Source of the DNA: an uncultured Gammaproteobacteria bacterium | Lineage (GTDB): Bacteria; Patescibacteriota; Microgenomatia; UBA1406; GWC2-37-13 | Reading direction: 5' to 3' | DNA: 56,001 bases | NCBI GenBank assembly: GCA_964576365.1 | Contig: CAZNUT010000001.1 | Span: 1-56,001, forward strand | Shown: in pieces, positions 2,651 to 55,910 of the stretch | Numbering within the stretch: the first letter of the stretch is position 1 | Layout: every line of letters starts with the position of its first letter | Translations under genes and position numbers: made by a program | The notes under the pieces: model-generated | The model's input: only the letters and a program-made list of their open reading frames with translations | What the model was told of the DNA's origin: nothing | Databases searched by the model: none

Positions 2651-4321
2651 TTAAGAAAGAGTTGCTTCAATACGCTTTATGAGAGCGTCTTTTTCCACAT
2701 CAGCTTTGGTGTGTGGAGTAGAGAAATGACGCAGCAGATTTTTACCCGCATTTTTCCAGAAAGTCAAAGAAACATAATTGGGTTTTTGAGACGGATCAAA
2801 GTCCAGTAGATGCCCGATGAGTTTGTATGCCATATAAAAAAGATACTTCGCGTCATGAAGCGAGCGTATCCCCACAATCTTTCGCCCAATATAGTGTGGC
2901 GTCATAAAAGCTGAATACAGATCCTGCTCAAGCTCCAGAATCTTCTCGTGTGGAAAAGGTACCTTCATTACCGGACGGCGCATGTCAAAATCATCGTAGT
3001 TTTCGGTGAGGAGCCATCCTTTTTCCTTACACTCGCGATAAAGCGGCGTGCCGGGGTAGGGGATCACGATAGTCGCCTGAATCGTCTCATAATATCCTTT
3101 TTTCATCGCGTACTTGGCGACATCGATCGTGCGCTTTGCATCTTCATATGACTCCCACGGATACCCGAGCATGATCGTGATATGTGGATCAAGTCCAGCT
3201 TTTTTCGCCATCGCGGGGTAGATGATCGCATCTTCTTCCTTGGTTCCTTTATCCAGACGGTCAAGCGTTTTCTGATTGGCCGACTCCATACCATAGAGAA
3301 TAAAACGGAATCCGGCCCGTCCCATAAGATCGTACATTTTCTGATTTGGAATAGCATTAAATCGCATATTGCACCCGTACTTCACTTTTTTGTTATACCC
3401 ACTTTCAATCAGAAGCTCGCAAAACTTTTTGAGTTTATTGCCAACAAAGAGAGTGCCGGCATCATCAAATATTTCTTTTACACCGTAGTTATCGACAACA
3501 TGTTTCACTTCGGCAAAAAGACGCTCTGGAGTAAAACTGCGGTATGAACCGATCGGATTTATGGTATGATCCCACACACAAAATGTACATTTGTTCCACC
3601 AGCAATCACGGCCGGAGTACATATAAGTACCTGGCGTGTATTTGTAATTACCATTTGCATAGGCGTAGAGTTTCCATTTGGTCAAATCGCGGTCAACAAA
3701 AGGAAGCGTATTCAAATCATGCTTCAGCGATGCAGGGCCGGAATGATAAATGACTTCGCCATTTTGCAATTTTTGACTTTTTACCTTTTCGCTTTTAATT
3801 TTTAGCTTTTTATTCGACGCTCTCCAATAGACTCCTCCTTCAAGCGGTACCCCTTTGGTGAGATGCTCGAGAATATTGAGCATCACAAAGTCATAATCTC
3901 CTCCTTTTATCGCGATGTCCACCGGACTGTTTTCAAAAATTTCATACGGAAGATAACTCACGTGGTCTCCCACCCAAACGAGTTGCAATTTGGGAAATCG
4001 TTTTTTGAGGTCTGCGATGATCTTCCAGTGGCGATGGATGACGGGCGATTTGGTCTCTACCATGAGAAAATCCGGCTGTATCTGTGCAAGTTCTTCACAC
4101 CACTGCTCGTAGGTCTGCTGACTGGCGATCCCATCCATCCAGTACACATCGTATCCTTTTGATTTGAGAAGTGATGCCGCATAGGCTGGCACCATAGGAT
4201 AAATATATGTAGGGGCATTAAAAAACTGGAATTGTCTATTTTGGGAAAGAAGCGGCACACCCTTTGAGGAGGGGAGAGGTGGGTAGCCGACTACGACTCG
4301 GAGAGGTCGGACAGTGTTCAT
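2651..4321 (-). CDS. B12-binding-domain radical SAM enzyme (HpnJ-like N-terminus)
   Basis: N-terminal Rossmann-like cobalamin-binding region (VVVGYPPLPS...QNRQFQ...YPMVPAYAASLLKSKGYDV...VWVGDHVS). Cys cluster SGRDCWWNKCTFCVW at aa 240-248. Downstream rSAM core (GMESANQKTLDRLDKG). Confidence 0.85.
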   Translation of the reverse strand: MNTVRPLRVVVGYPPLPSSKGVPLLSQNRQFQFFNAPTYIYPMVPAYAASLLKSKGYDVYWMDGIASQQTYEQWCEELAQIQPDFLMVETKSPVIHRHWKIIADLKKRFPKLQLVWVGDHVSYLPYEIFENSPVDIAIKGGDYDFVMLNILEHLTKGVPLEGGVYWRASNKKLKIKSEKVKSQKLQNGEVIYHSGPASLKHDLNTLPFVDRDLTKWKLYAYANGNYKYTPGTYMYSGRDCWWNKCTFCVWDHTINPIGSYRSFTPERLFAEVKHVVDNYGVKEIFDDAGTLFVGNKLKKFCELLIESGYNKKVKYGCNMRFNAIPNQKMYDLMGRAGFRFILYGMESANQKTLDRLDKGTKEEDAIIYPAMAKKAGLDPHITIMLGYPWESYEDAKRTIDVAKYAMKKGYYETIQATIVIPYPGTPLYRECKEKGWLLTENYDDFDMRRPVMKVPFPHEKILELEQDLYSAFMTPHYIGRKIVGIRSLHDAKYLFYMAYKLIGHLLDFDPSQKPNYVSLTFWKNAGKNLLRHFSTPHTKADVEKDALIKRIEATLS

Positions 4322-6325: not shown

Positions 6326-6349
6326 CACCCTCCGATTCGGAGGGCAGGC
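6326..6349. repeat. 24-nt GC hairpin module (caccctccgattcggagggcaggc)
   Basis: 7-bp stem ccctccg/cggaggg. Its exact reverse complement occurs at 55584-55607. Confidence 0.85.
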
Positions 6350-6356
6350 CCTACAC

Positions 6357-6830
6357 CTATTTATACCTATCTTTCACCTGAAACAGGATATAAAATCCGA
6401 TGAGAGCAGAGATGATCGCTCCACCCACCTGAAGTGATAAAAGGCTGGAAGCAATAGACAACAACTGAGCATAAAACGCATTTTTCCATCCCTTCATGGT
6501 TTTATTAAACAATCCGGGAAGAGCAATGACATTAAACACAAGCGACAAAACAGTAAGAATAAGAGGTATGAACGAAAATACATTGCGGCCACTCATCATA
6601 CCATAACCTGTTGTCACCGGCGCAAAAACAGCAGTAAGACCCAACGCTGCGATGATAACAGGAAGTGAAAGAACCATTAGGATCAGAAGCACCCAAGGAC
6701 CAAACTTCACGATAGCATCTTTGACTTCGGAAGGAAGTTGAAATGGTGCTTTTTTCACAAAATACAACTCCAGAGTTTCTTCAAGTTTTTGTAATGACAT
6801 TTCCGAAGAATGATGAGTTTGGTCTGACAT
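6357..6830 (-). CDS. small integral membrane protein (157 aa, ~4 TM)
   Basis: Soluble N-terminus (LEETLELYFVKKAPFQLPSEVKDAIVKFGPW) followed by four hydrophobic helices. Confidence 0.6.
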   Translation of the reverse strand: MSDQTHHSSEMSLQKLEETLELYFVKKAPFQLPSEVKDAIVKFGPWVLLILMVLSLPVIIAALGLTAVFAPVTTGYGMMSGRNVFSFIPLILTVLSLVFNVIALPGLFNKTMKGWKNAFYAQLLSIASSLLSLQVGGAIISALIGFYILFQVKDRYK

Positions 6831-17721: not shown

Positions 17722-17769
17722 TATCCAATACTTTTTACCTTTTCACTTTTACCTATTAACTAAAATTGT

Positions 17770-19860: not shown

Positions 19861-19976
19861 CATGTAATCGAAAGTTGATTTCCAAACACATATTTCTCAT
19901 ATTGAAATACCAATAATCATTCATTTTTAACTCTTCAATTTAATTTTTAATTTAGAACTAAAAAACGTTACAAAGT

Positions 19977-22010: not shown

Positions 22011-22784
22011 ATGCATATCTTTGCCCATCGTGGACTTCTTGAAGAATATCCTGAAAACTCACTCACTGCGCTTATTGAAGCAGTGAAAAGAGGGTATGCA
22101 ATCGAGACAGATTTACGTCTGACAAAAGATGGTGATTTTGTCATCATCCACGATGATAATTTTGAACGACTTGCAGAAGATGCAAGAAAAGTAGCACAAC
22201 TCACTGTACAAGAAATCGAAAACATACCATACATAAACTCGACAGAACGTTTTATTTCACTCAAGACTTTTTTAGATGCAATAAACAAACTGGATACCAA
22301 GCCACAGCTTGCACTTCATCTCAAAGCCGATAGCCAAAACAACAGAGCATATCAGAAACTTTCTGACTATTGGAAAAAATATGAGCTACATAACCACGCA
22401 TTTGTATTCGATCTGACCCGTGATGCTGCTCAAAATCTCAAGCAAGTAAATCCAGAAATCAAAATAGCTTATATCATCTCTGAAACAAAATTTGAGCACA
22501 CCATCAATCTCTGGGATGAAGTGAAAGATGACCCGCATTTTGATATTGTCTGGGCAGCTGAGTATCGTCATTTTTATTCACAGACGCTATTGGCAGAAAT
22601 GAAGTCAAAAAAAAAGACAGTATATTGTATGTCGCCGGACGTACACACTGCACTCGGTCATCCACTTGCATATCACGGCTACGAAGAGACATGGAAAAAA
22701 CTTATTAATTGGCACATCGACGGCATCTGCACAGACAAACCAGAGAAGCTCAAAAATTTAGAATTTCAATTACTGGGTCATTAG
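22011..22784 (+). CDS. glycerophosphodiester phosphodiesterase (GDPD) family protein
   Basis: FAHRGLLEEYPENSLTAL...IETDLRLTKDGDFVIIHDDN, the canonical GDPD catalytic motifs. Confidence 0.85.
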   Translation: MHIFAHRGLLEEYPENSLTALIEAVKRGYAIETDLRLTKDGDFVIIHDDNFERLAEDARKVAQLTVQEIENIPYINSTERFISLKTFLDAINKLDTKPQLALHLKADSQNNRAYQKLSDYWKKYELHNHAFVFDLTRDAAQNLKQVNPEIKIAYIISETKFEHTINLWDEVKDDPHFDIVWAAEYRHFYSQTLLAEMKSKKKTVYCMSPDVHTALGHPLAYHGYEETWKKLINWHIDGICTDKPEKLKNLEFQLLGH

Positions 22785-22953
22785 AAGTTTAGTTTTTTAG
22801 TCATTTAGTAGTTTAGCTAGTAGTAAATCTATTTCGCTCATTGTCTGCCGACAAGCAAACGCAATGACGATATATCAACTAACGCTCTCATCTACTAATA
22901 TACTAACCGACTAGTTTATAAACTTTATAACTTTAAAAACTTTATACACCAAA

Positions 22954-23692: not shown

Positions 23693-23741
23693 CTGTCTTC
23701 TGTTTACTGTAATCTGATTACTGTCGTCTGTTTACTGTATA
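23693..23741 (+). repeat. tandem degenerate heptamer array (CTGTNNN x7)
   Basis: ctgtctt ctgttta ctgtaat ctgatta ctgtcgt ctgttta ctgtata, in exact 7-nt phase. The last unit overlaps the TATAAT box. Confidence 0.85.
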
Positions 23742-24546: not shown

Positions 24547-24773
24547 ATATCATCTCTCTGTAGGTAGGAGCGGGATTTCGACTTATTAACATATTAACTT
24601 TTCTTAAAAGGTAAAAGCGAAAAGGTAATATATTTTTTACAACTAAGAAATAAGAATTAAGAAATAAGAATCATCTTCTTTCTTCTTCCTTAATTCTTCA
24701 TGATCATTATACATTGGACTTGGCACTCAGAAAGTAAGTCAACATCGCAAATAGTTATAAACTAATAAAATTA

Positions 24774-35742: not shown

Positions 35743-37233
35743 TTAAGATATCTTCACCAGTTTCACGTCTGCGCTTGCACACACCACATCTTTTTCCTTG
35801 AGCCCGAGTTCTTTCAGCGTCACAAAGGATTCTTTTATGAGCACATGGGTAAGCTCATACTTCTTTGCCACCTCCTGTACACTCATCCGCAAGATAGGGA
35901 AGACCTCGGTAACTTTCAGAAGGCCGGGATTGTCCGCATTCACAAACACCTGTGCTTTAGTGTGGTACACCGTCATCGTCGTATTCTGGTGAGGAATACA
36001 CAAAATCCGCAAAGTACTTTTTTGTTTATTGATATACTCAAACACCGTGAGCATATCTCCTGTCACGCTCCGATTTCTGTCACGAATGATGCCTTTTATC
36101 TGAATCCCGATGATAACCCCAACACACAATAACACAGCAACTCCAACCAAAACCAATACAAAAAAACCATACAATCCCGCAAGCTCAAACACCACATATG
36201 CTGCTATGATACTCGACGGCACCGGCGCCATCTCCAGATACCGCTGACCCTCACCGATGGGCATAAGTCTACGGATTTTCAAGACAATCACTCCAAGAAC
36301 ATATAAAAATATGATCCAGGCAGCAAATTGAAAAAGTATTGCCGGAGGACGAAACAGGTTGTAATAATTACCAGCTACCAATATAAATGCACTCAGACTC
36401 CACGGAAACAGCCCGAAAATCGCAACAGGAGAAAAAAGAGAGAGCAATTGATAAATCTTATTTACAAAATCGGTTTTGGTATCTTTTTTGATAATGCCTC
36501 GCACCTGATGAGCAAATCGATACTCAAGATTTACACACCAGAAATAAATATTGGCGATATGGCCTTTGAGTACTCGCAGATAATATCCCTTTGTCACAAT
36601 AATTGCCAAAACAAAACTTATCAGAAATATCTGTATAAAAAGAGGAGTATTTAAGTAAAACGTAAAAAAAATCGAGATAAATAAAAACGCCTGCATTGCA
36701 AATCGATGAGAAAGAAAAAGGAGAACGCCAGATACCAGGCTGACAACGAGATACCACTCTTGACCTTCACCTAAAAAAAGCAGCAGTGGCAATACAGTAA
36801 GAGTAAATAACGTGTACCCGAATGAGCGGGGAGTAAGATAGCTATTTTCCACCGCGATCATAGGAGTTGCCATATACATCACCTGTGCCAAAACAGCAAT
36901 CATCGGATTTTCGGTGATATGAAATGCAACAAAATAAACCAGTATCACCTGCAATGAATCAAAAAACGGAGCTATATAGCCTTGAATTTTCAGCAATGTT
37001 TTTTTTGGAATAAAAGAAAAGAGCCACGGAGTCACCGGTGGATAATCAAAATATCCGTCTATGATAAATTGACCTCCCAGTGGACGATCTGGAATCCGGT
37101 GATGATTTTTGCGGATATGGTCAACCTCGATGAGTCTCGTCCATACATCAACACCAAAAAAGGGATTAAATAGTCGAGGATACGACTGCAGAACAAAATT
37201 CAGCACTGGAACGAAAAAAAATAAGTTGTTCAT
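35743..37233 (-). CDS. polytopic membrane protein (GT-C-like or polymerase-like) with C-terminal soluble domain
   Basis: At least 10 hydrophobic helices. Acidic first-loop motif FFGVDVWTRLIEVDH. ~110-aa soluble C-terminus. The ATG at 37233 is preferred over the TTG at 37245. Confidence 0.55.
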   Translation of the reverse strand: MNNLFFFVPVLNFVLQSYPRLFNPFFGVDVWTRLIEVDHIRKNHHRIPDRPLGGQFIIDGYFDYPPVTPWLFSFIPKKTLLKIQGYIAPFFDSLQVILVYFVAFHITENPMIAVLAQVMYMATPMIAVENSYLTPRSFGYTLFTLTVLPLLLFLGEGQEWYLVVSLVSGVLLFLSHRFAMQAFLFISIFFTFYLNTPLFIQIFLISFVLAIIVTKGYYLRVLKGHIANIYFWCVNLEYRFAHQVRGIIKKDTKTDFVNKIYQLLSLFSPVAIFGLFPWSLSAFILVAGNYYNLFRPPAILFQFAAWIIFLYVLGVIVLKIRRLMPIGEGQRYLEMAPVPSSIIAAYVVFELAGLYGFFVLVLVGVAVLLCVGVIIGIQIKGIIRDRNRSVTGDMLTVFEYINKQKSTLRILCIPHQNTTMTVYHTKAQVFVNADNPGLLKVTEVFPILRMSVQEVAKKYELTHVLIKESFVTLKELGLKEKDVVCASADVKLVKIS

Positions 37234-37311
37234 CAAGTTCGTCAAGTTATAAAATTCGTAAAGTTGTTGTTTAATCTATGGCTAATTTCCAAGCAACGAT
37301 TTCTAATTTCT

Positions 37312-37425
37312 GTGCGAAATAGGTGGCACGAATAGAGGGTTCCCGACAGCGCGCAGAATTTTTCCAGCCTGCCGCTGGTTCGAGCACTGACGGGATGACA
37401 ATGAGTGACAGAATCTATTTCGCAC
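37312..37425 (+). repeat. GC-rich palindromic repeat, copy A
   Basis: Outer 11-bp perfect stem gtgcgaaatag/ctatttcgcac. Inner cccgacag/ctgacggg and ccagc/gctgg stems. The 27-nt core cagcgcgcagaatttttccagcctgcc is identical to copy B. Confidence 0.85.
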
Positions 37426-37454
37426 GTAATATGACTAACACTTTTACCTTTTCA

Positions 37455-37473
37455 CCTGCCTGCGGCAGGCAGG
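37455..37473. other. perfect 9-bp GC-rich palindrome cctgcctgc-g-gcaggcagg
   Basis: Lies 11 nt downstream of the minus-strand SDR stop codon. No U-tract follows on either strand. Confidence 0.5.
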
Positions 37474-37483
37474 CTCTTCACTT

Positions 37484-38443
37484 TTAACTATATTCTTTCA
37501 TAAGTTCAAGCGTTTCTTTGATCCCTTCCTCGATGCCATACCGCGATTTGAAGCCGAGTATTTTTCTCACTTTTGCGTTGTCCATAGATCCACGCCAGAC
37601 CTGAGTATTGTTGGGATTGCGGATCTCATACCGGAATGACGGATAATACTGTTTTAATATTTCGGCAAACTCTGACGCCTCACGTGATTGACCTCGTGAA
37701 ATATTAAATGTTTCATGCACAGCACCTGGACTGGTGGTACAGATAGCAAAACCAGATGCAACATCTTTGACATACGAAAAATCGAGAGCCTCATCTTTTA
37801 CAACCCACGCGCTTTTACCCGCAACTGCAGCATCGATAAGAAGCTGAGTCACTCTATTTGCGCAATCAGTAAATCCATATACTGAGGTAGGACGGATGAT
37901 GACCCACTCTTTTTTACTCAATTTTACAAAATATTCTCCTGCTGCTTTAGTGGCACCATATGCATTTACCGGAGAAAGAATAGACTCTTCAGGCTGTGGC
38001 TGTTTGGTGAAGTGTCCATATGCCATGCTGGAAGAGGTGTAAATGATCCTTCTTGCAGATGAACACTTTTCGAATACTTCCAAGACATTGAGAGTTCCTT
38101 GCATATTTATAGGCAGCATCTCATCAACATGATTTTGAGGAGGGCGAGCCATAGGAAGTCCGGCAAGATGCACTATGATTTCTGGTTTGTAATCCGCACA
38201 TGCTTTTTTAAATGAGTCAATGTCACGAATATCTCCTTTGTATTCGACAGAAGGTTTGAGCTTAAAATATTTTTTCCTGATCTTCATCATCGTTTTATAA
38301 TATTCAGGGTTGTTGATGAAGTTGAGATGAGCGTCAAATATCGCAACATCATGCCCTGACTGCATGAGCGCATCTGCAAGATATGATCCGATAAATCCTT
38401 TTCCGCCAGTGATAAGTATATTCATATGCAGATCATTATACAT
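37484..38443 (-). CDS. NAD-dependent epimerase/dehydratase (extended SDR)
   Basis: NILITGGKGFIGSYL, YGATKAAGE (YxxxK). Confidence 0.85.
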   Translation of the reverse strand: MYNDLHMNILITGGKGFIGSYLADALMQSGHDVAIFDAHLNFINNPEYYKTMMKIRKKYFKLKPSVEYKGDIRDIDSFKKACADYKPEIIVHLAGLPMARPPQNHVDEMLPINMQGTLNVLEVFEKCSSARRIIYTSSSMAYGHFTKQPQPEESILSPVNAYGATKAAGEYFVKLSKKEWVIIRPTSVYGFTDCANRVTQLLIDAAVAGKSAWVVKDEALDFSYVKDVASGFAICTTSPGAVHETFNISRGQSREASEFAEILKQYYPSFRYEIRNPNNTQVWRGSMDNAKVRKILGFKSRYGIEEGIKETLELMKEYS

Positions 38444-38494
38444 GTATGCTTTATTTGGTCAATGAAGATGATATGATTATCATATTTTATTCAT

Positions 38495-39211
38495 ATGACC
38501 AATACTCAAACCACACGCAGCATGGTTTTCCTGCAGGACGACCATGATGAACACCAACTCGTTCCTGGGCATCATTTTTTATTTAACTGGATCAAACCAT
38601 ATGTGAAAAAAAACAGCAAACTGCTTGATATTGGCTGCTGGAGTGGGGCACTGGAACTTTTGTTTGAAAAAATTCCCTGTCATGTGACTGGAATCGATAT
38701 AGAAGAGGCACCTATAAAATACGCGAAAAAGCGCTTTCCAAAATTCCGTTTTGAAAAAGCATCTATCGTAGAAGATCTCCCCTTCGAAAAAAATGAGTTT
38801 GATATTGCCATGTACTTCATGGTGATAGAGCATGTACCCCCGGGTACAGAACTTACATCACTCATTAATATAAATCGCGTGCTCAAAAAAGGTGGTAATC
38901 TGTTTTTTAACACGATGCACAGCACCATCATCTCAAACCTCATTGATCCAGCGTATTTTTTTGGTCATCGTCACTACAGCAGAAAACATCTGGAAATATT
39001 GCTGACGCTTGCAGGATTTGAGATAAAAGAAGTCAAATACAATGCAGGCTATTTCACCACACTACATATCATGCTTTTGTATTTCTTCAAGCACGTACTC
39101 AGACGAAAAGAACCGCGTAATAAATTTCTTGACTGGCTTATGAGTCTAGATTATCGTGATCGAGGTTTTGCCGAAATCGACATACGAGCTGTCAAAATCA
39201 TGGATAAATAA
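38495..39211 (+). CDS. class I SAM-dependent methyltransferase
   Basis: LLDIGCWSGALE, FDIAMYFMVIEHV. Confidence 0.8.
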   Translation: MTNTQTTRSMVFLQDDHDEHQLVPGHHFLFNWIKPYVKKNSKLLDIGCWSGALELLFEKIPCHVTGIDIEEAPIKYAKKRFPKFRFEKASIVEDLPFEKNEFDIAMYFMVIEHVPPGTELTSLININRVLKKGGNLFFNTMHSTIISNLIDPAYFFGHRHYSRKHLEILLTLAGFEIKEVKYNAGYFTTLHIMLLYFFKHVLRRKEPRNKFLDWLMSLDYRDRGFAEIDIRAVKIMDK

Positions 39212-39230
39212 ATAACAAAATCTTATTTCC

Positions 39231-39279
39231 AATATCGAATATCTAATGTTTAAAGTCTAAAGTCAAATGTCTAATCACC
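39231..39279 (+). repeat. tandem degenerate heptamer array (AAWNTCN x7)
   Basis: aatatcg aatatct aatgttt aaagtct aaagtca aatgtct aatcacc, in exact 7-nt phase. It contains the ATG at 39267. Confidence 0.85.
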
Positions 39280-40412
39280 GGCAGACGTCACGAGTAGAAG
39301 GTCAGAGGCAGCGCGCAGAATTTTTCCAGCCTGCCACTGGTACGAGCACTGGCGGGACAACCACGAGTGACAGAAGCTGCCTGAGTAATAAAAAAGTCAG
39401 TATTGTGATTGTCAACTGGAATGGTTTGCATCACCTAAAAACACTACTTCCCTCACTCAGCCTACTGACATACCCCGCGCTTGAAATCATCATTGTGGAC
39501 AACGCATCAACAGATACATCGGTCCAATATATCCGAGTCAATCATCCTCTCATTCGCGTGATCGTGAACCAGCAAAACGAAGGATTTGCAAATGGAAATA
39601 ATATTGGCGTCAGACAAGCAACAGGGGAGTATGTACTTCTCCTCAACAACGACACACGAATCGTTCAACATGATCTCATAGAACATCTATTGCGCATTTT
39701 TCAACAGTCAAAAAATATAGGTATAGCTCAACCCAAAATTCTACGCATGAATTATCCAAACACTCTTGATTCTGTAGGTGCATACTATACTCGAACAGGT
39801 TTTTTGTATCATTTTGGATATCTTCAACATGATAGTGAACAATTTAATACATCAGTCCCTCTGTACACTGCAAAAGGTGCGTGTATCTTGATTAAAAAAA
39901 GTCTCATTGACCAAATTGGATTATTTGATTCAGATTACTTTGCTTATTTTGAGGAAACTGACTTTTGTCATCGGACGTGGCTTGCCGGTTACGAAGTATG
40001 GTATGAGCCAGGGGCAAAAATCGAACATCACATAGGTGGCACCTCTAATGCTATGGATAATGCATACGTACAATTTCACTCATTCAAAAACCGAATTCAC
40101 TCATATATCAAAAATCTAAGTGTTTGGGAATTGATTTTCCTCTTACCCACACATATTGCTTTGTGCATATGTGCTGCTGTGCTGTTTTTTTTAAAACAAA
40201 AACCACTGACGGGTATTGCCATACTAAAAGCAATTGTATGGAATATCATTAAGCTGCCTAAAACGTTACAAACTCGACAGCACATTCAAAACAAAATAAG
40301 AAAAAAATCAGATGCCGAATTTTTGCCAGCATTAACAAAAGCACCCCGCATAACATACTATATTGCCCTATTTGGAAACAGATTAGACCAATATAAAGAA
40401 GCTTGTCCCTGA
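39267..40412 (+). CDS. family 2 glycosyltransferase with C-terminal TM helices; N-terminal 38 codons are a repeat element
   Basis: VSIVIVNWNGLHHL...IIIVDNASTDTS...LLLNNDT. The only in-frame ATG is 39267. The canonical-looking N-terminus (x)SNKKVSIVIV begins at the CTG at 39381. Confidence 0.8.
   Translation: MSNHRQTSRVEGQRQRAEFFQPATGTSTGGTTTSDRSCLSNKKVSIVIVNWNGLHHLKTLLPSLSLLTYPALEIIIVDNASTDTSVQYIRVNHPLIRVIVNQQNEGFANGNNIGVRQATGEYVLLLNNDTRIVQHDLIEHLLRIFQQSKNIGIAQPKILRMNYPNTLDSVGAYYTRTGFLYHFGYLQHDSEQFNTSVPLYTAKGACILIKKSLIDQIGLFDSDYFAYFEETDFCHRTWLAGYEVWYEPGAKIEHHIGGTSNAMDNAYVQFHSFKNRIHSYIKNLSVWELIFLLPTHIALCICAAVLFFLKQKPLTGIAILKAIVWNIIKLPKTLQTRQHIQNKIRKKSDAEFLPALTKAPRITYYIALFGNRLDQYKEACP
39278..39381 (+). 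repeat. GC-rich palindromic repeat, copy B (inside annotated GT2 ORF)
   Basis: Termini ccggcag...ctgcc. The 27-nt core at 39309-39335 is identical to 37347-37373. The shared 3' arm is gagcactgRcggga..a..gagtgacagaa. Confidence 0.85.
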
Positions 40413-54821: not shown

Positions 54822-54836
54822 GATAAATTCCATGCA

Positions 54837-54932
54837 CCGGCAGGTGTCACGAGTGGAGGGTTCCCGACAGCGCGCAACGAACGAAGTGAAGAGAGCACTG
54901 ACGGGAGGACAACGAGTGACAGAATCTGCCGG
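54837..54932 (+). repeat. GC-rich palindromic repeat, copy C
   Basis: Perfect 7-bp termini ccggcag/ctgccgg. It shares gtcacgagt.gagggttcccgacagcgcgca and agcactgacggga.gacaa.gagtgacagaatct with copy A, but has a different central segment. Confidence 0.85.
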
Positions 54933-54947
54933 AAAGTAAAATGTAAG

Positions 54948-55910
54948 TTAATTACTCTTTCTTATCACACACACCAGGGTAAGACCAAAAGGAAGTCCAC
55001 CAATCAGTTCTTCAATGCGTAGTATTGCATCCAAGACACCTCTGACAAAACGCGAGAGGGGAGAGTTGCTTTTCCTCATAGTTTCATTTATCGGACGGCC
55101 CAGTATTTTTTCATAAAATCCGTATACAAAAAACCCGATGATATTCCAGTAACACATTTTCATCTCACCAATCCTGTCTAATCCTGCTTGCGCAATATGG
55201 TCTTTCATCAGAGCTCGGTCATACCGGCGAAAATGTCCCCATGCCTTATCACGTTTACCATAGAGAAACTGAAATGCCGGAACGGTAATAACTAACTGAC
55301 CTCCCGGCCGGACAAACGACCAGAGATTTTTTAGTGCCGTAATATCATCTTTGATATGCTCGATGACATCGCTTGCGATCACCACATCGTACGATGCATC
55401 ACCTTTCATTTCGGTGATACTCCCTTGCCGGATATCAACACCGTTTAATGCGGGATCTCGACGCATATTTTCAACAAGCTCCTGCTCAAGTTCCACACCA
55501 TGAATCTCATATCCTACGGACTTGAAAAATTTGAGAATGAGTCCGTTTCCCGCGCCAACATCTAATAAACGTAGTCGTGTAGCGCCTGCCCTCCGAATCG
55601 GAGGGTGGAGCGTGGAACCTGAAACGTTTTCTTTTTTCGACTGACTATTATTTCCTGATTGTTTCAACGCCTGAGTCTCAGAATCCCTACGTTCCTGTGC
55701 ATCGAAAGTGTGGAGTCTCTGAGCATCTGACGTACTGTCACTGTGTCGCACTAATTTATGAACAAACCTTGCCAGATTGCTGATGCGAAGATCATAAGAG
55801 CTTGAAGCGAGATGATGTTGTTGTGAGATAAGATCATAATCGTCTACTTTTTGCATAGTATGAGTATACACTGAATGATTTTCTATCGTAAGACTATCAC
55901 AACAGTACAA
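54948..55910 (-). CDS. class I SAM-dependent methyltransferase with low-complexity N-terminal insertion
   Basis: LLDVGAGNGLILKFF...YDVVIASDVIEHI. aa ~55-110 are S/Q/R-rich and are encoded by spacer-type repeat modules. Confidence 0.8.
   Translation of the reverse strand: MYCCDSLTIENHSVYTHTMQKVDDYDLISQQHHLASSSYDLRISNLARFVHKLVRHSDSTSDAQRLHTFDAQERRDSETQALKQSGNNSQSKKENVSGSTLHPPIRRAGATRLRLLDVGAGNGLILKFFKSVGYEIHGVELEQELVENMRRDPALNGVDIRQGSITEMKGDASYDVVIASDVIEHIKDDITALKNLWSFVRPGGQLVITVPAFQFLYGKRDKAWGHFRRYDRALMKDHIAQAGLDRIGEMKMCYWNIIGFFVYGFYEKILGRPINETMRKSNSPLSRFVRGVLDAILRIEELIGGLPFGLTLVCVIRKSN
55584..55607. repeat. 24-nt GC hairpin module, second copy (inside methyltransferase ORF)
   Basis: gcctgccctccgaatcggagggtg is the perfect reverse complement of 6326-6349. 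It encodes HPPIRRAG of the minus-strand ORF. Confidence 0.85.

What the first reader, a model, noticed from the sequence alone, without database searches (positions are those of the whole stretch)
39267..39383. Repeat copy B sits exactly on a glycosyltransferase start codon and is now read through in frame
Downstream of the element's 3' terminus (..ctgcc, ending at 39381) the sequence continues tgagtaataaaaaagtcagtattgtgattgtc. Restoring one A would give ATG AGT AAT AAA AAA GTC AGT ATT GTG ATT GTC, which is MSNKKVSIVIV, a textbook GT2 N-terminus. As it stands, the codon is CTG (39381-39383). The only in-frame ATG is 114 nt upstream (39267), inside a heptamer array. This adds 38 codons (MSNHRQTSRVEGQRQRAEFFQPATGTSTGGTTTSDRSC) that are simply the repeat translated. 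The repeat therefore appears to have inserted at or over the original initiation codon. The gene either acquired an N-terminal extension, analogous to in-frame Rickettsia palindromic elements, or initiates at a non-ATG codon, or is silenced.
Basis: partly seen in the sequence, partly recalled or inferred. Interest (0 to 1): 0.65.

Follow-up and report, generated by a model that had tools for sequence, protein, structure and literature searches.

The report
Hairpin repeat translated inside glycosyltransferase gene
A ~100-base hairpin-forming repeat found in candidate-phyla-radiation bacteria sits in frame just after the start codon of a glycosyltransferase gene and probably adds a floppy 38-residue leader, much as Rickettsia palindromic elements do in their host genes.

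Summary
ORF 39267-40412 reads through repeat copy B, and CTG 39381 is the codon where GT2 homologues have their Met. The 38 extra codons are the repeat translated.

The repeat is a real family. The window holds three copies (A 37314-37423, B 39276-39385, C 54835-54934), and 12 further distinct copies lie on public Roizmanbacteria/Patescibacteria-type contigs. All share a four-to-six-helix hairpin: 93.5% of cells pair and 22 of 27 pairs show compensatory changes. There is no Rfam match.

Elsewhere the element sits in frame and stop-free, in either orientation, inside AsnB-like, NadE-like and Tgt-like genes and a membrane protein. It therefore behaves like a Rickettsia palindromic element.

The GT2 itself looks intact, with all family-invariant residues and a confident GT-A model from about residue 41; residues 1-30 are disordered. 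ATG 39267 has a start context typical of this genome, while CTG 39381 is an outlier.

I conclude that the gene is translated from ATG 39267. That ATG is more likely the original start, with the element landing after codon 3, than a lucky upstream ATG replacing a destroyed one. Copy B alone has lost its hairpin.

Novelty: a new member of a known kind.

The parts
39276..39385 (+). Repeat copy B, the hairpin element read through by the GT2 ORF (codons 4-39/40)
   Evidence: Covariance-model hit of 72.1 bits, the lowest of the ten copies scoring above 70 bits. Its fold is no better than shuffled sequence (z = -0.09).
39278..39284 (+). 5' arm of copy B's outer helix (CCGGCAG)
   Evidence: Identical to copy C's 5' arm, including the preceding CA.
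39377..39383 (+). 3' arm of copy B's outer helix (CTGCCTG); it contains the CTG codon 39381-39383
   Evidence: Copy C has CTGCCGG at this position. One G-to-T difference gives B's arm.
39303..39308 (+). Mutated patch that destroys helix 4 in copy B (consensus TCCCGA, here CAGAGG)
   Evidence: Four of the five helix-4 pairs are unpaired in one copy of the ten in the first alignment, and that copy is B. The partner CGGGA at 39353-39357 is unchanged.
39267..39269 (+). ATG, the most likely translation start of the GT2
   Evidence: It is the only ATG/GTG/TTG in frame before 39405. Its context (MFE -7.0 kcal/mol, upstream GC 0.23) is typical of 33 other starts in the window (mean -7.1, 0.28).
39267..40412 (+). 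GT2-family glycosyltransferase ORF (381 aa) with C-terminal membrane helices
   Evidence: Pfam PF00535 at 1.6e-20. It keeps all 40 invariant columns of a 50-sequence alignment. AlphaFold2 mean pLDDT is 90.9, with residues 1-30 below 50.
39242..39274 (+). AT-rich period-7 array upstream of and overlapping the ATG
   Evidence: TRF: 4.7 copies, consensus TCTAAAG. Similar arrays precede other genes in the window.
37314..37423 (+). Repeat copy A, intergenic between two minus-strand genes
   Evidence: Covariance-model hit of 97.7 bits. Fold z = -3.54. Its apical hairpin is nearly identical to B's.
54835..54934 (+). Repeat copy C, intergenic between convergent genes
   Evidence: Covariance-model hit of 100.2 bits. 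Fold z = -4.80. It has the same outer stem as B.

Best explanation
Copy B belongs to a dispersed family of ~95-145-nt GC-rich imperfect palindromes carried by candidate-phyla-radiation bacteria (Roizmanbacteria and relatives). The family spreads by an unknown DNA-level mechanism. It has at least one stop-free frame on each strand, so insertions that land in frame in a tolerant part of a gene survive and are translated, as with Rickettsia palindromic elements.

In this window one copy landed just inside the 5' end of a GT2 glycosyltransferase gene, after codon 3 of an ORF starting at ATG 39267. The pre-insertion N-terminus would be MSN(SN)KKVSIVIVNWNG. The gene is still translated from that ATG and yields an intact GT-A enzyme with a 38-residue, probably disordered and cytoplasmic, N-terminal leader.

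After insertion, copy B lost its hairpin through uncompensated changes in the 5' arms of helix 4 and the base of helix 1. This is plausibly because a stable stem directly behind the start codon is selected against, or because structure no longer matters at that site.

Shown:
- the family, its structure and its covariation;
- in-frame residence in other genes in both orientations;
- that the extension is unique among homologues;
- that the enzyme part is intact;
- the typical context of ATG 39267.

Inferred:
- translation from ATG 39267;
- that this ATG is the ancestral start;
- the reason for copy B's decay;
- DNA-level mobility.
For: Family and structure:
- Three window copies plus 12 other distinct copies on public contigs.
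- 93.5% of cells pair, against 27-47% with slid partners. 22 of 27 pairs have changes on both sides, and 0 of 500 shuffles reach this.
- The outer stem differs in sequence in nearly every copy yet still pairs.

In-frame residence:
- AsnB-like gene, antisense orientation.
- NadE-like gene, sense orientation, about 35 extra residues against PDB 2e18.
- Tgt-like gene, antisense, 28 unmatched residues against PDB Tgt.
- Codons ~12-42 of a 316-aa membrane protein (322-codon open frame), sense.
- Stop-free frames on both strands.

GT2:
- Homologues start MKKVS...; 3-21 residues precede strand 1, against 43 here.
- All invariant residues are kept.
- pLDDT is above 95 from about residue 41 and below 50 for residues 1-30.

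Start codon:
- Genes in the window lack Shine-Dalgarno sequences and mostly start at ATG behind AT-rich sequence.
- ATG 39267 is typical. CTG 39381 has MFE -14.5 (only 1 of 33 genes as low) and upstream GC 0.63 (higher than all 33).
- Copy C's arm CTGCCGG explains the TG of CTGCCTG in B.

Lengths:
- The CA-CCGGCAG...CTGCCTG segment is 108 nt (36 codons).
- TAAT repeats lie 2 nt outside each stem of B, giving 110 + 4 = 114 nt.
Against: - No close orthologue or empty site is available (best GT2 hit 58% identity), so the ancestral start is inferred rather than observed.
- There is no expression or proteomic data.
- Both scenarios predict the same ancestral peptide (MSNKKVS...), so protein comparison cannot separate them.
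- The target-site duplication is only suggestive: two exact cases plus one 5-mer case among 15 copies, P about 0.024.
- GTG 39405 has an unremarkable context and cannot be formally excluded as a start.
- The mobility mechanism is unknown, and no partner transposase was looked for systematically.
- The conserved G.U pair (12 of 15 copies) and the conserved unpaired bases could point to an RNA function rather than a purely selfish element.
Confidence: 0.6

Rival explanations
1. The element inserted at or over the original ATG (now cTG at 39381-39383, one A lost). The upstream ATG 39267 is a fortuitous in-frame start that rescued expression and added 38 codons.
For: Adding one A after ctgcc gives ATG AGT AAT AAA AAA GTC = MSNKKVS, which matches the MKKVS-type N-termini of homologues. 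The element's +2 frame is open in copies B and C anyway, so a fortuitous read-through costs only the 1-in-3 frame chance plus an in-frame ATG.
Against: The TG is accounted for by the element's own 3' arm (C: CTGCCGG, B: CTGCCTG). This scenario needs an additional single-base loss. ATG 39267 has a fully typical start context and lies at a normal distance (55 nt) from the upstream gene. The alternative pre-insertion sequence, ATG TCT AAT AAA AAA GTC, gives the same MSNKKVS peptide without extra events.
Confidence: 0.2
2. The element is 5' untranslated sequence, and the GT2 initiates at a non-ATG or internal codon (CTG 39381 or GTG 39405).
For: CTG 39381 is exactly where homologues have Met. GTG 39405 has an unremarkable local context (MFE -10.9, upstream GC 0.33).
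Against: None of the ORF starts listed for the window is CTG. About 34 of 43 are ATG, and none has a GC-rich structured upstream region. No Shine-Dalgarno motif lies upstream of CTG. A GTG 39405 start would remove three of the seven residues of strand beta1 (residues 44-50 in the model). Ribosomes starting at ATG 39267 would read through in frame anyway.
Confidence: 0.1
3. The insertion silenced the gene, so the GT2 is a decaying pseudogene.
For: An insertion at the 5' end of a gene is a classic way to inactivate it. There is no direct evidence of expression.
Against: The ORF is uninterrupted for 381 codons. All 40 invariant and the roughly 60 near-invariant family positions are kept. The Pfam match is full length, and the predicted fold is confident (pLDDT above 95). 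Meanwhile the element itself has accumulated many changes, so there has been time for decay.
Confidence: 0.05
4. The element is a functional cis-acting RNA (a leader or riboswitch, a ribozyme, or a small intron removed from the mRNA) rather than a selfish repeat.
For: Strong covariation, conserved unpaired nucleotides and a conserved G.U pair. Copies B, L007a and L007b lie at the 5' ends of genes.
Against: There is no Rfam match even at E <= 10. Copies lie in both orientations relative to host genes; the AsnB, Tgt and gatC copies are antisense, which excludes an intron or a sense-strand leader for those. Every copy inside a gene is in frame and stop-free, which an excised RNA would not need. 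Host genes are functionally unrelated. Copy B itself no longer folds.
Confidence: 0.05

Closest known systems
Rickettsia palindromic elements (RPEs; Ogata et al. 2000 and 2002, as summarised in PMC10969869)
   Same: Dispersed ~100-150-nt imperfect palindromes in a small, reduced bacterial genome. Many copies are inserted in frame in unrelated housekeeping genes and translated as extra peptide segments. Copies are also intergenic. No transposase is carried and the mobility mechanism is unknown.
   Different: The host lineage is different (CPR/Patescibacteria rather than Rickettsia), and no sequence relationship was seen or tested against RPE consensus sequences. Here the outer stem changes sequence from copy to copy with compensation. 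One protein loop (in the AsnB-like gene) is occupied again and again across species.
Bacterial MITEs and intragenic small repeats (ERIC, BOX, Correia, Nezha-type; reviewed in PMC10969869)
   Same: Small, non-autonomous, multi-copy and hairpin-forming. They can create in-frame fusions with host ORFs.
   Different: Classical MITEs have family-wide conserved terminal inverted repeats, a defined target-site duplication and a recognisable parent IS. Here the terminal arms are not conserved in sequence, the duplication is only suggestive, and no parent element was found in the DNA held.
REP/BIME extragenic palindromes (RAYT-associated)
   Same: GC-rich palindromic repeats, often at gene ends (copies A and C are intergenic, and C lies between convergent genes). 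Structure is conserved through compensatory change.
   Different: REPs are 20-40 nt and extragenic by definition. This element is ~100 nt, has several helices and internal loops, and sits inside coding sequence.
Coding palindromes in Nematomorpha mitochondrial genes (PMC6649704, abstract seen)
   Same: Inverted repeats embedded in protein-coding genes, with both arms translated.
   Different: Those are long perfect repeats in animal mitochondria and are not a dispersed sequence family shared between genomes.

Membership tests
Rickettsia palindromic elements (RPE-1 to RPE-10) | Sequence similarity to an RPE family consensus, and occurrence in Rickettsia or close relatives | not tested
   No RPE consensus library was available. 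Named relatives of the host contigs are Candidatus Roizmanbacteria / Patescibacteria, so membership is not claimed, only an analogous way of working.
Rickettsia palindromic elements (RPE-1 to RPE-10) | Palindromic ~100-150-nt repeats found in frame inside unrelated protein-coding genes as well as between genes | tested here: met
   In frame in AsnB-like, NadE-like, Tgt-like, GT2 and membrane-protein genes. Intergenic copies are A, C, L007a/b and L015a.
MITE | Small, multi-copy, with no transposase ORF | tested here: met
   Copies are 95-145 nt by covariance-model bounds (85-149 nt stem to stem). There are 15 distinct copies, and the only open frames are those of host genes or stretches under 55 aa.
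MITE | Terminal inverted repeats conserved across the family (transposase binding sites) | tested here: not met
   The terminal arms pair within each copy but differ in sequence between copies (GTGCGAAATAG, CCGGCAG, CTCGACAG, ACAGCAG, AACTTGAATAG, CTTGCCAG, ATGATTCGATAG). Only the innermost 2-3 bp are shared.
MITE | Target-site duplication of fixed length | tested here: inconclusive
   4-5-nt direct repeats lie exactly 2 nt outside the stems in 3 of 15 copies (B TAAT, L015b GAAA, L010 ATTAA). P is about 0.024 for the two exact 4-mers, and the other copies have none.
MITE | A related autonomous IS with the same ends | not tested
   Only ~300 kb of related DNA was held. No longer element with these ends was seen among the covariance-model hits.
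Known structured RNA families (Rfam 15) | Covariance-model match at or near the gathering score | tested here: not met
   No hits at gathering thresholds over the whole window. No hit on the element at E <= 10 in 37200-39500. No tRNA or tmRNA.
Self-splicing intron or other RNA-level intervening sequence | Same-strand orientation relative to the interrupted gene | tested here: not met
   The AsnB-like and Tgt-like copies are antisense to the host ORF by the strand that carries the G.U pairs.
GT2 (GT-A fold) glycosyltransferase, for the host gene | Pfam PF00535 match above the curated cut-off, family-invariant residues present, GT-A fold | tested here: met
   74.1 bits against a cut-off of 23.3. 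40 invariant columns are kept. The AlphaFold2 model has pLDDT 95-98 over residues 41-370. No NCBIfam equivalog passes its cut-off, so the substrate is unknown.

The most novel reading that the evidence does not exclude
The element is more than selfish DNA. It would be a conserved structured nucleic acid, either RNA or top-strand single-stranded DNA, as hinted by the G.U pair kept in 12 of 15 copies and by invariant unpaired bases. It would have a site- and orientation-specific way of entering or persisting in genes. The evidence is that the same surface loop of the AsnB-like enzyme carries it, always antisense, in at least five Roizmanbacteria-type lineages whose host proteins are only 52-57% identical to the L001 host (P0121), while other lineages carry other hairpins at that spot. 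That would make it a homing-like or selected 'coding hairpin' system, and a general route by which CPR proteins acquire loops and N-terminal extensions.
Probability: 0.2. Interest if true: 0.75.

Novelty: new member of a known kind. Interest (0 to 1): 0.55.

Why it matters
CPR/Patescibacteria have tiny genomes and are thought to be streamlined. [quoted passage not shown]

It matters for annotation, because such copies produce odd N-terminal extensions, odd loops and mis-called starts. It matters for understanding how new peptide segments arise. It also gives a well-defined, strongly covarying structure (model R2) that can be used to census these elements.

For this particular gene the practical message is that the GT2 is probably functional and starts at ATG 39267.

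Tried and rejected
- Rfam gathering and permissive scans and ARAGORN: nothing on the element.
- Viral-contig scan with the core pattern: 0 hits.
- Exhaustive representative search with the 35-aa translation of copy C: 0 hits, because the query is too short to reach significance in 1.8 billion proteins.
- Search for a close GT2 orthologue or empty site: the best hit is 58% identical, so no DNA-level comparison of the insertion site was possible.
- Search for a close AsnB-like orthologue without the insert: the closest (72%) carries a different palindrome at the same spot, so exact element boundaries could not be fixed.
- Target-site duplication analysis: no uniform duplication, only a suggestive 4-5-nt repeat in 3 of 15 copies.
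- Identity matrix to decide between vertical descent and re-insertion at the AsnB site: ambiguous.
- Ideas considered and dropped: riboswitch or leader RNA, ribozyme, intron (orientation and in-frame evidence against); integron attC and retron (no matching context or conserved boxes; judged from my own knowledge, not tested); alternative genetic code (ORFs are intact under table 11).
Full report
**1. The observation**

ORF 39267-40412 (+) begins ATG TCT AAT CAC CGG CAG ... and encodes MSNHRQTSRVEGQRQRAEFFQPATGTSTGGTTTSDRSC, followed by LSNKKVSIVIVNWNG.

Codon 39 is CTG (39381-39383). Between ATG 39267 and GTG 39405 there is no in-frame ATG, GTG or TTG. Pfam's Glycos_transf_2 domain starts at residue 45 with profile position 1, so the first ~40 residues lie outside the enzyme. 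ATG 39267 lies in a period-7 AT-rich array at 39242-39274.

The stretch 39276-39385 is one of three direct-orientation copies of a repeat. The others are A at 37314-37423 and C at 54835-54934. An unfiltered covariance-model scan of the whole window finds no further copy. The copies are GC islands (0.50-0.54) set in intergenic DNA of about 0.30 GC.

**2. What the repeat is**

Copies A and C fold into a long imperfect hairpin well below shuffled controls (z = -3.5 and -4.8). Copy B does not (z = -0.1).

The conserved core (CCCGACAGCGCG ... GAGCACTGRCGGGA ... GAGTGACAGAA) was used to scan public collections:
- One hit in a Candidatus Roizmanbacteria genome.
- Eight metagenome loci, six of them distinct.
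- No hit in viral contigs.

A covariance model built on the nine distinct copies then found diverged copies in the fetched DNA. More turned up in loci reached through host proteins. That makes 15 distinct copies in all.

On these 15 copies, 93.5% of cells form standard pairs, against 27-47% when the 3' partners are slid. 22 of 27 pairs show changes on both sides, and none of 500 shuffles reaches the observed values (the alignment was fitted to the model, which favours the structure somewhat). An independent MAFFT/RNAalifold analysis of nine copies already showed 11 of 27 pairs with compensatory changes.

The outermost helix is the most striking feature. Its sequence differs in almost every copy yet always pairs: GTGCGAAATAG, CCGGCAG, CTCGACAG, ACAGCAG, AACTTGAATAG, CTTGCCAG, ATGATTCGATAG. 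A G.U pair at the base of this helix is kept in 12 of 15 copies.

No Rfam family matches, even at E <= 10. No paper in the library links MITEs or coding palindromes with CPR bacteria.

**3. The family lives inside genes**

For every copy I asked whether a long open frame runs through it.

| Locus | Host gene | Orientation | Evidence |
|---|---|---|---|
| L001 (= L005 = L008) | AsnB-like, 963 aa | antisense | read as ...KPLYFSLLGSTDSVTHVFPASARSALNTPNLRAVGIPNISATCRVVFTSEIKP... |
| L003 | NadE-like NAD synthetase | sense | ~35 residues more than PDB 2e18 between the two aligned blocks |
| L004 | Tgt-like tRNA-guanine transglycosylase | antisense | 28 residues have no counterpart in solved Tgt structures; chain residue 284 is aligned on both sides |
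| L006 | 316-aa membrane protein (322-codon open frame) | sense | occupies codons ~12-42 |
| L007 | gat operon | intergenic | two copies, just upstream of gatC and gatB |

Each copy has at least one stop-free frame on each strand.

I searched with the AsnB-like host and inspected the loop between RDHFGIKPLY[FY] and xxF[SA]SEIKP. The loop is 9-12 residues in about half of the 120 orthologues but 25-61 residues in many others.

The DNA of seven such inserts was fetched:
- Four more are clear family members, all antisense to the gene: L010 79.3 bits, L011 61.1, L012 37.5, L015 38.9.
- Two are hairpins with only a faint resemblance to the 3' core (L013, L016).
- One is an unrelated palindrome (L014).

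So the family behaves like the Rickettsia palindromic elements summarised in PMC10969869. It is a palindromic repeat that is tolerated, and translated, inside unrelated housekeeping genes.

**4. The GT2 gene**

The 119 homologues found are 336-362 aa and cover 82-92% of the query. In the 116 where the motif was found, 3-21 residues (mostly 3-6) precede the VSIIIVNWN strand, against 43 here. The extension is therefore unique to this gene.

The best homologue is only 58% identical, so no empty-site orthologue is available.

The enzyme part is not decaying:
- It keeps all 40 invariant columns and the near-invariant columns of a 50-sequence alignment.
- AlphaFold2 gives pLDDT 95-98 from about residue 41 to about 370. 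Residues 1-30 are below 50, and a short helix spans residues 36-41.

No NCBIfam equivalog passes its cut-off, so the substrate is unknown.

**5. Which start codon**

Genes in this window almost never have a Shine-Dalgarno motif. About 34 of the 43 ORF starts listed are ATG, preceded by AT-rich sequence and often by a TATAAT-like box a few bases upstream.

| Candidate start | MFE, -30..+40 (kcal/mol) | Upstream GC | Compared with 33 other starts |
|---|---|---|---|
| ATG 39267 | -7.0 | 0.23 | typical (means -7.1 and 0.28) |
| CTG 39381 | -14.5 | 0.63 | only 1 of 33 folds as strongly; GC is higher than all 33 |
| GTG 39405 | -10.9 | 0.33 | unremarkable, but a start here would remove part of strand beta1 |

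All values are; the beta1 position is. I therefore take ATG 39267 as the functional start. This is an inference, since there are no expression data.

**6. On the start codon, or just behind it?**

Copies B and C share the 5' arm, including two preceding bases (CA-CCGGCAG). C's 3' arm is CTGCCGG and B's is CTGCCTG.

The alternative is that the element entered a gene already starting at ATG 39267:
- From CA-CCGGCAG to CTGCCTG the element is 108 nt (36 codons).
- With the TAAT repeats that lie 2 nt outside each stem, it is 110 + 4 = 114 nt (38 codons).
- Removing it gives ATG TCT AAT (AGT AAT) AAA AAA GTC, that is MSN(SN)KKVS..., an N-terminus of the usual kind for this family and for the GT2 paralogues in the window.

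Both scenarios predict the same ancestral peptide, so only an empty site can settle the question.

A general test for target-site duplications found no uniform repeat. Only B (TAAT), L015b (GAAA) and L010 (ATTAA) share the geometry of a 4-5-nt repeat 2 nt outside the stems. P is about 0.024 for the two exact 4-mers. This remains unresolved.

**7. Copy B is a decayed copy**

B has the lowest score (72.1 bits) of the ten copies that scored above 70 bits; the five diverged copies score lower.

Four of the five helix-4 pairs are broken in B, by five substitutions packed into 39303-39308 (consensus TCCCGA, here CAGAGG). The partner arm is unchanged. The two pairs at the base of helix 1 are also lost (GGTG has become GACG).

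B's apical hairpin is nearly identical to A's, so the damage is local rather than general divergence. Selection against a stable stem directly after the start codon is a plausible cause. Relaxed constraint is the alternative. This step is inference.

**8. Open points**

- Mobility mechanism: none is known. No transposase or longer parent element was seen in the ~300 kb held.
- Orientation: copies sit in both orientations relative to host genes. This argues for a DNA-level element and against an intron, leader or ribozyme.
- Possible function: the conserved G.U pair and the invariant unpaired bases leave room for a structured RNA or single-stranded-DNA function.
- AsnB loop: the repeated, always-antisense occupation of one AsnB-like loop is unexplained. 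The identity matrix does not cluster those copies exclusively, so one old insertion, re-insertion and conversion all remain possible.

**9. Verdict**

The element is a new member of the known kind 'palindromic repeats translated inside genes' (RPE-like). It occurs in CPR bacteria and has a well-supported secondary structure and no database match.

The GT2 is most likely an active enzyme with a disordered 38-residue N-terminal leader, translated from ATG 39267.

Noticed in passing
window 6326-6356 and 55577-55607: A second, shorter GC-rich hairpin repeat (CACCCTCCGATTCGGAGGGCAGGCSCTACAC; ~35 nt shared). One copy is intergenic, immediately 3' of minus-strand ORF 6357-6830. The inverted copy lies inside the minus-strand SAM-methyltransferase-like ORF 54948-55910 and is read in frame as ...STLHPPIRRAGATRLR... 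just before the LLDVGAGNG motif. That may be a second coding palindrome in the same window.
   Followed up: partly
window 3771-3812, 17729-17758, 19939-19953, 22781-22821, 22915-22946, 23699-23739, 24605-24699, 39242-39274: Short-period (7, 8, 9 or 14 nt) AT-rich tandem arrays, most of them in the regions just upstream of genes. Their units resemble -10 hexamers (TCTAAT, TCTAAA, TTTAAA). Their function is unknown.
   Followed up: no
window, starts of the long ORFs (for example 2214, 12828, 22011, 23752, 24840): Genes lack Shine-Dalgarno motifs. Many have a TATAAT-like box ending 2-10 nt before the ATG, which suggests leaderless or very short-leader mRNAs in this organism.
   Followed up: no
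window 37458-37474: A small perfect hairpin, CCTGCCTGCGGCAGGCAGG, lies next to copy A and just beyond the stop of the minus-strand epimerase gene. It shares CTGCC/GGCAG with the outer stems of copies B and C. It scores as a plus-strand terminator-like site. It could be a terminator or a remnant of another copy.
   Followed up: no
window 54832-54939: Copy C is itself preceded directly by an ATG (ccATGCACCGGCAG) and is open for 35 codons to a TAA (MHRQVSRVEGSRQRATNEVKRALTGGQRVTESAGK). Copy A is open from a GTG for 54 codons (37323-37487). These are probably meaningless, but B and C both have an ATG just upstream in the same frame.
   Followed up: no
L010-L016 (AsnB-like genes) and proteins P0121-P0240: The loop between RDHFGIKPLY[FY] and xxF[SA]SEIKP of a ~850-960-aa AsnB-like fusion protein (GATase + Asn_synthase + F420-ligase-like) is a hot spot. 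About half of the 120 orthologues have 9-12 residues there, while others have 25-61 residues encoded by hairpins of several kinds, including an unrelated palindrome GTCATTACGAGC...CTCGCAATGAC in L014.
   Followed up: partly
L007 622-716 and 2833-2930; L015 3145-3255: Intergenic copies bracket the gat operon (upstream of gatC and of gatB) in one genome. In another genome a copy sits between the LemA and M48-peptidase genes. The LemA - M48 peptidase - AsnB-like - GatC/A/B synteny is conserved across these contigs.
   Followed up: no
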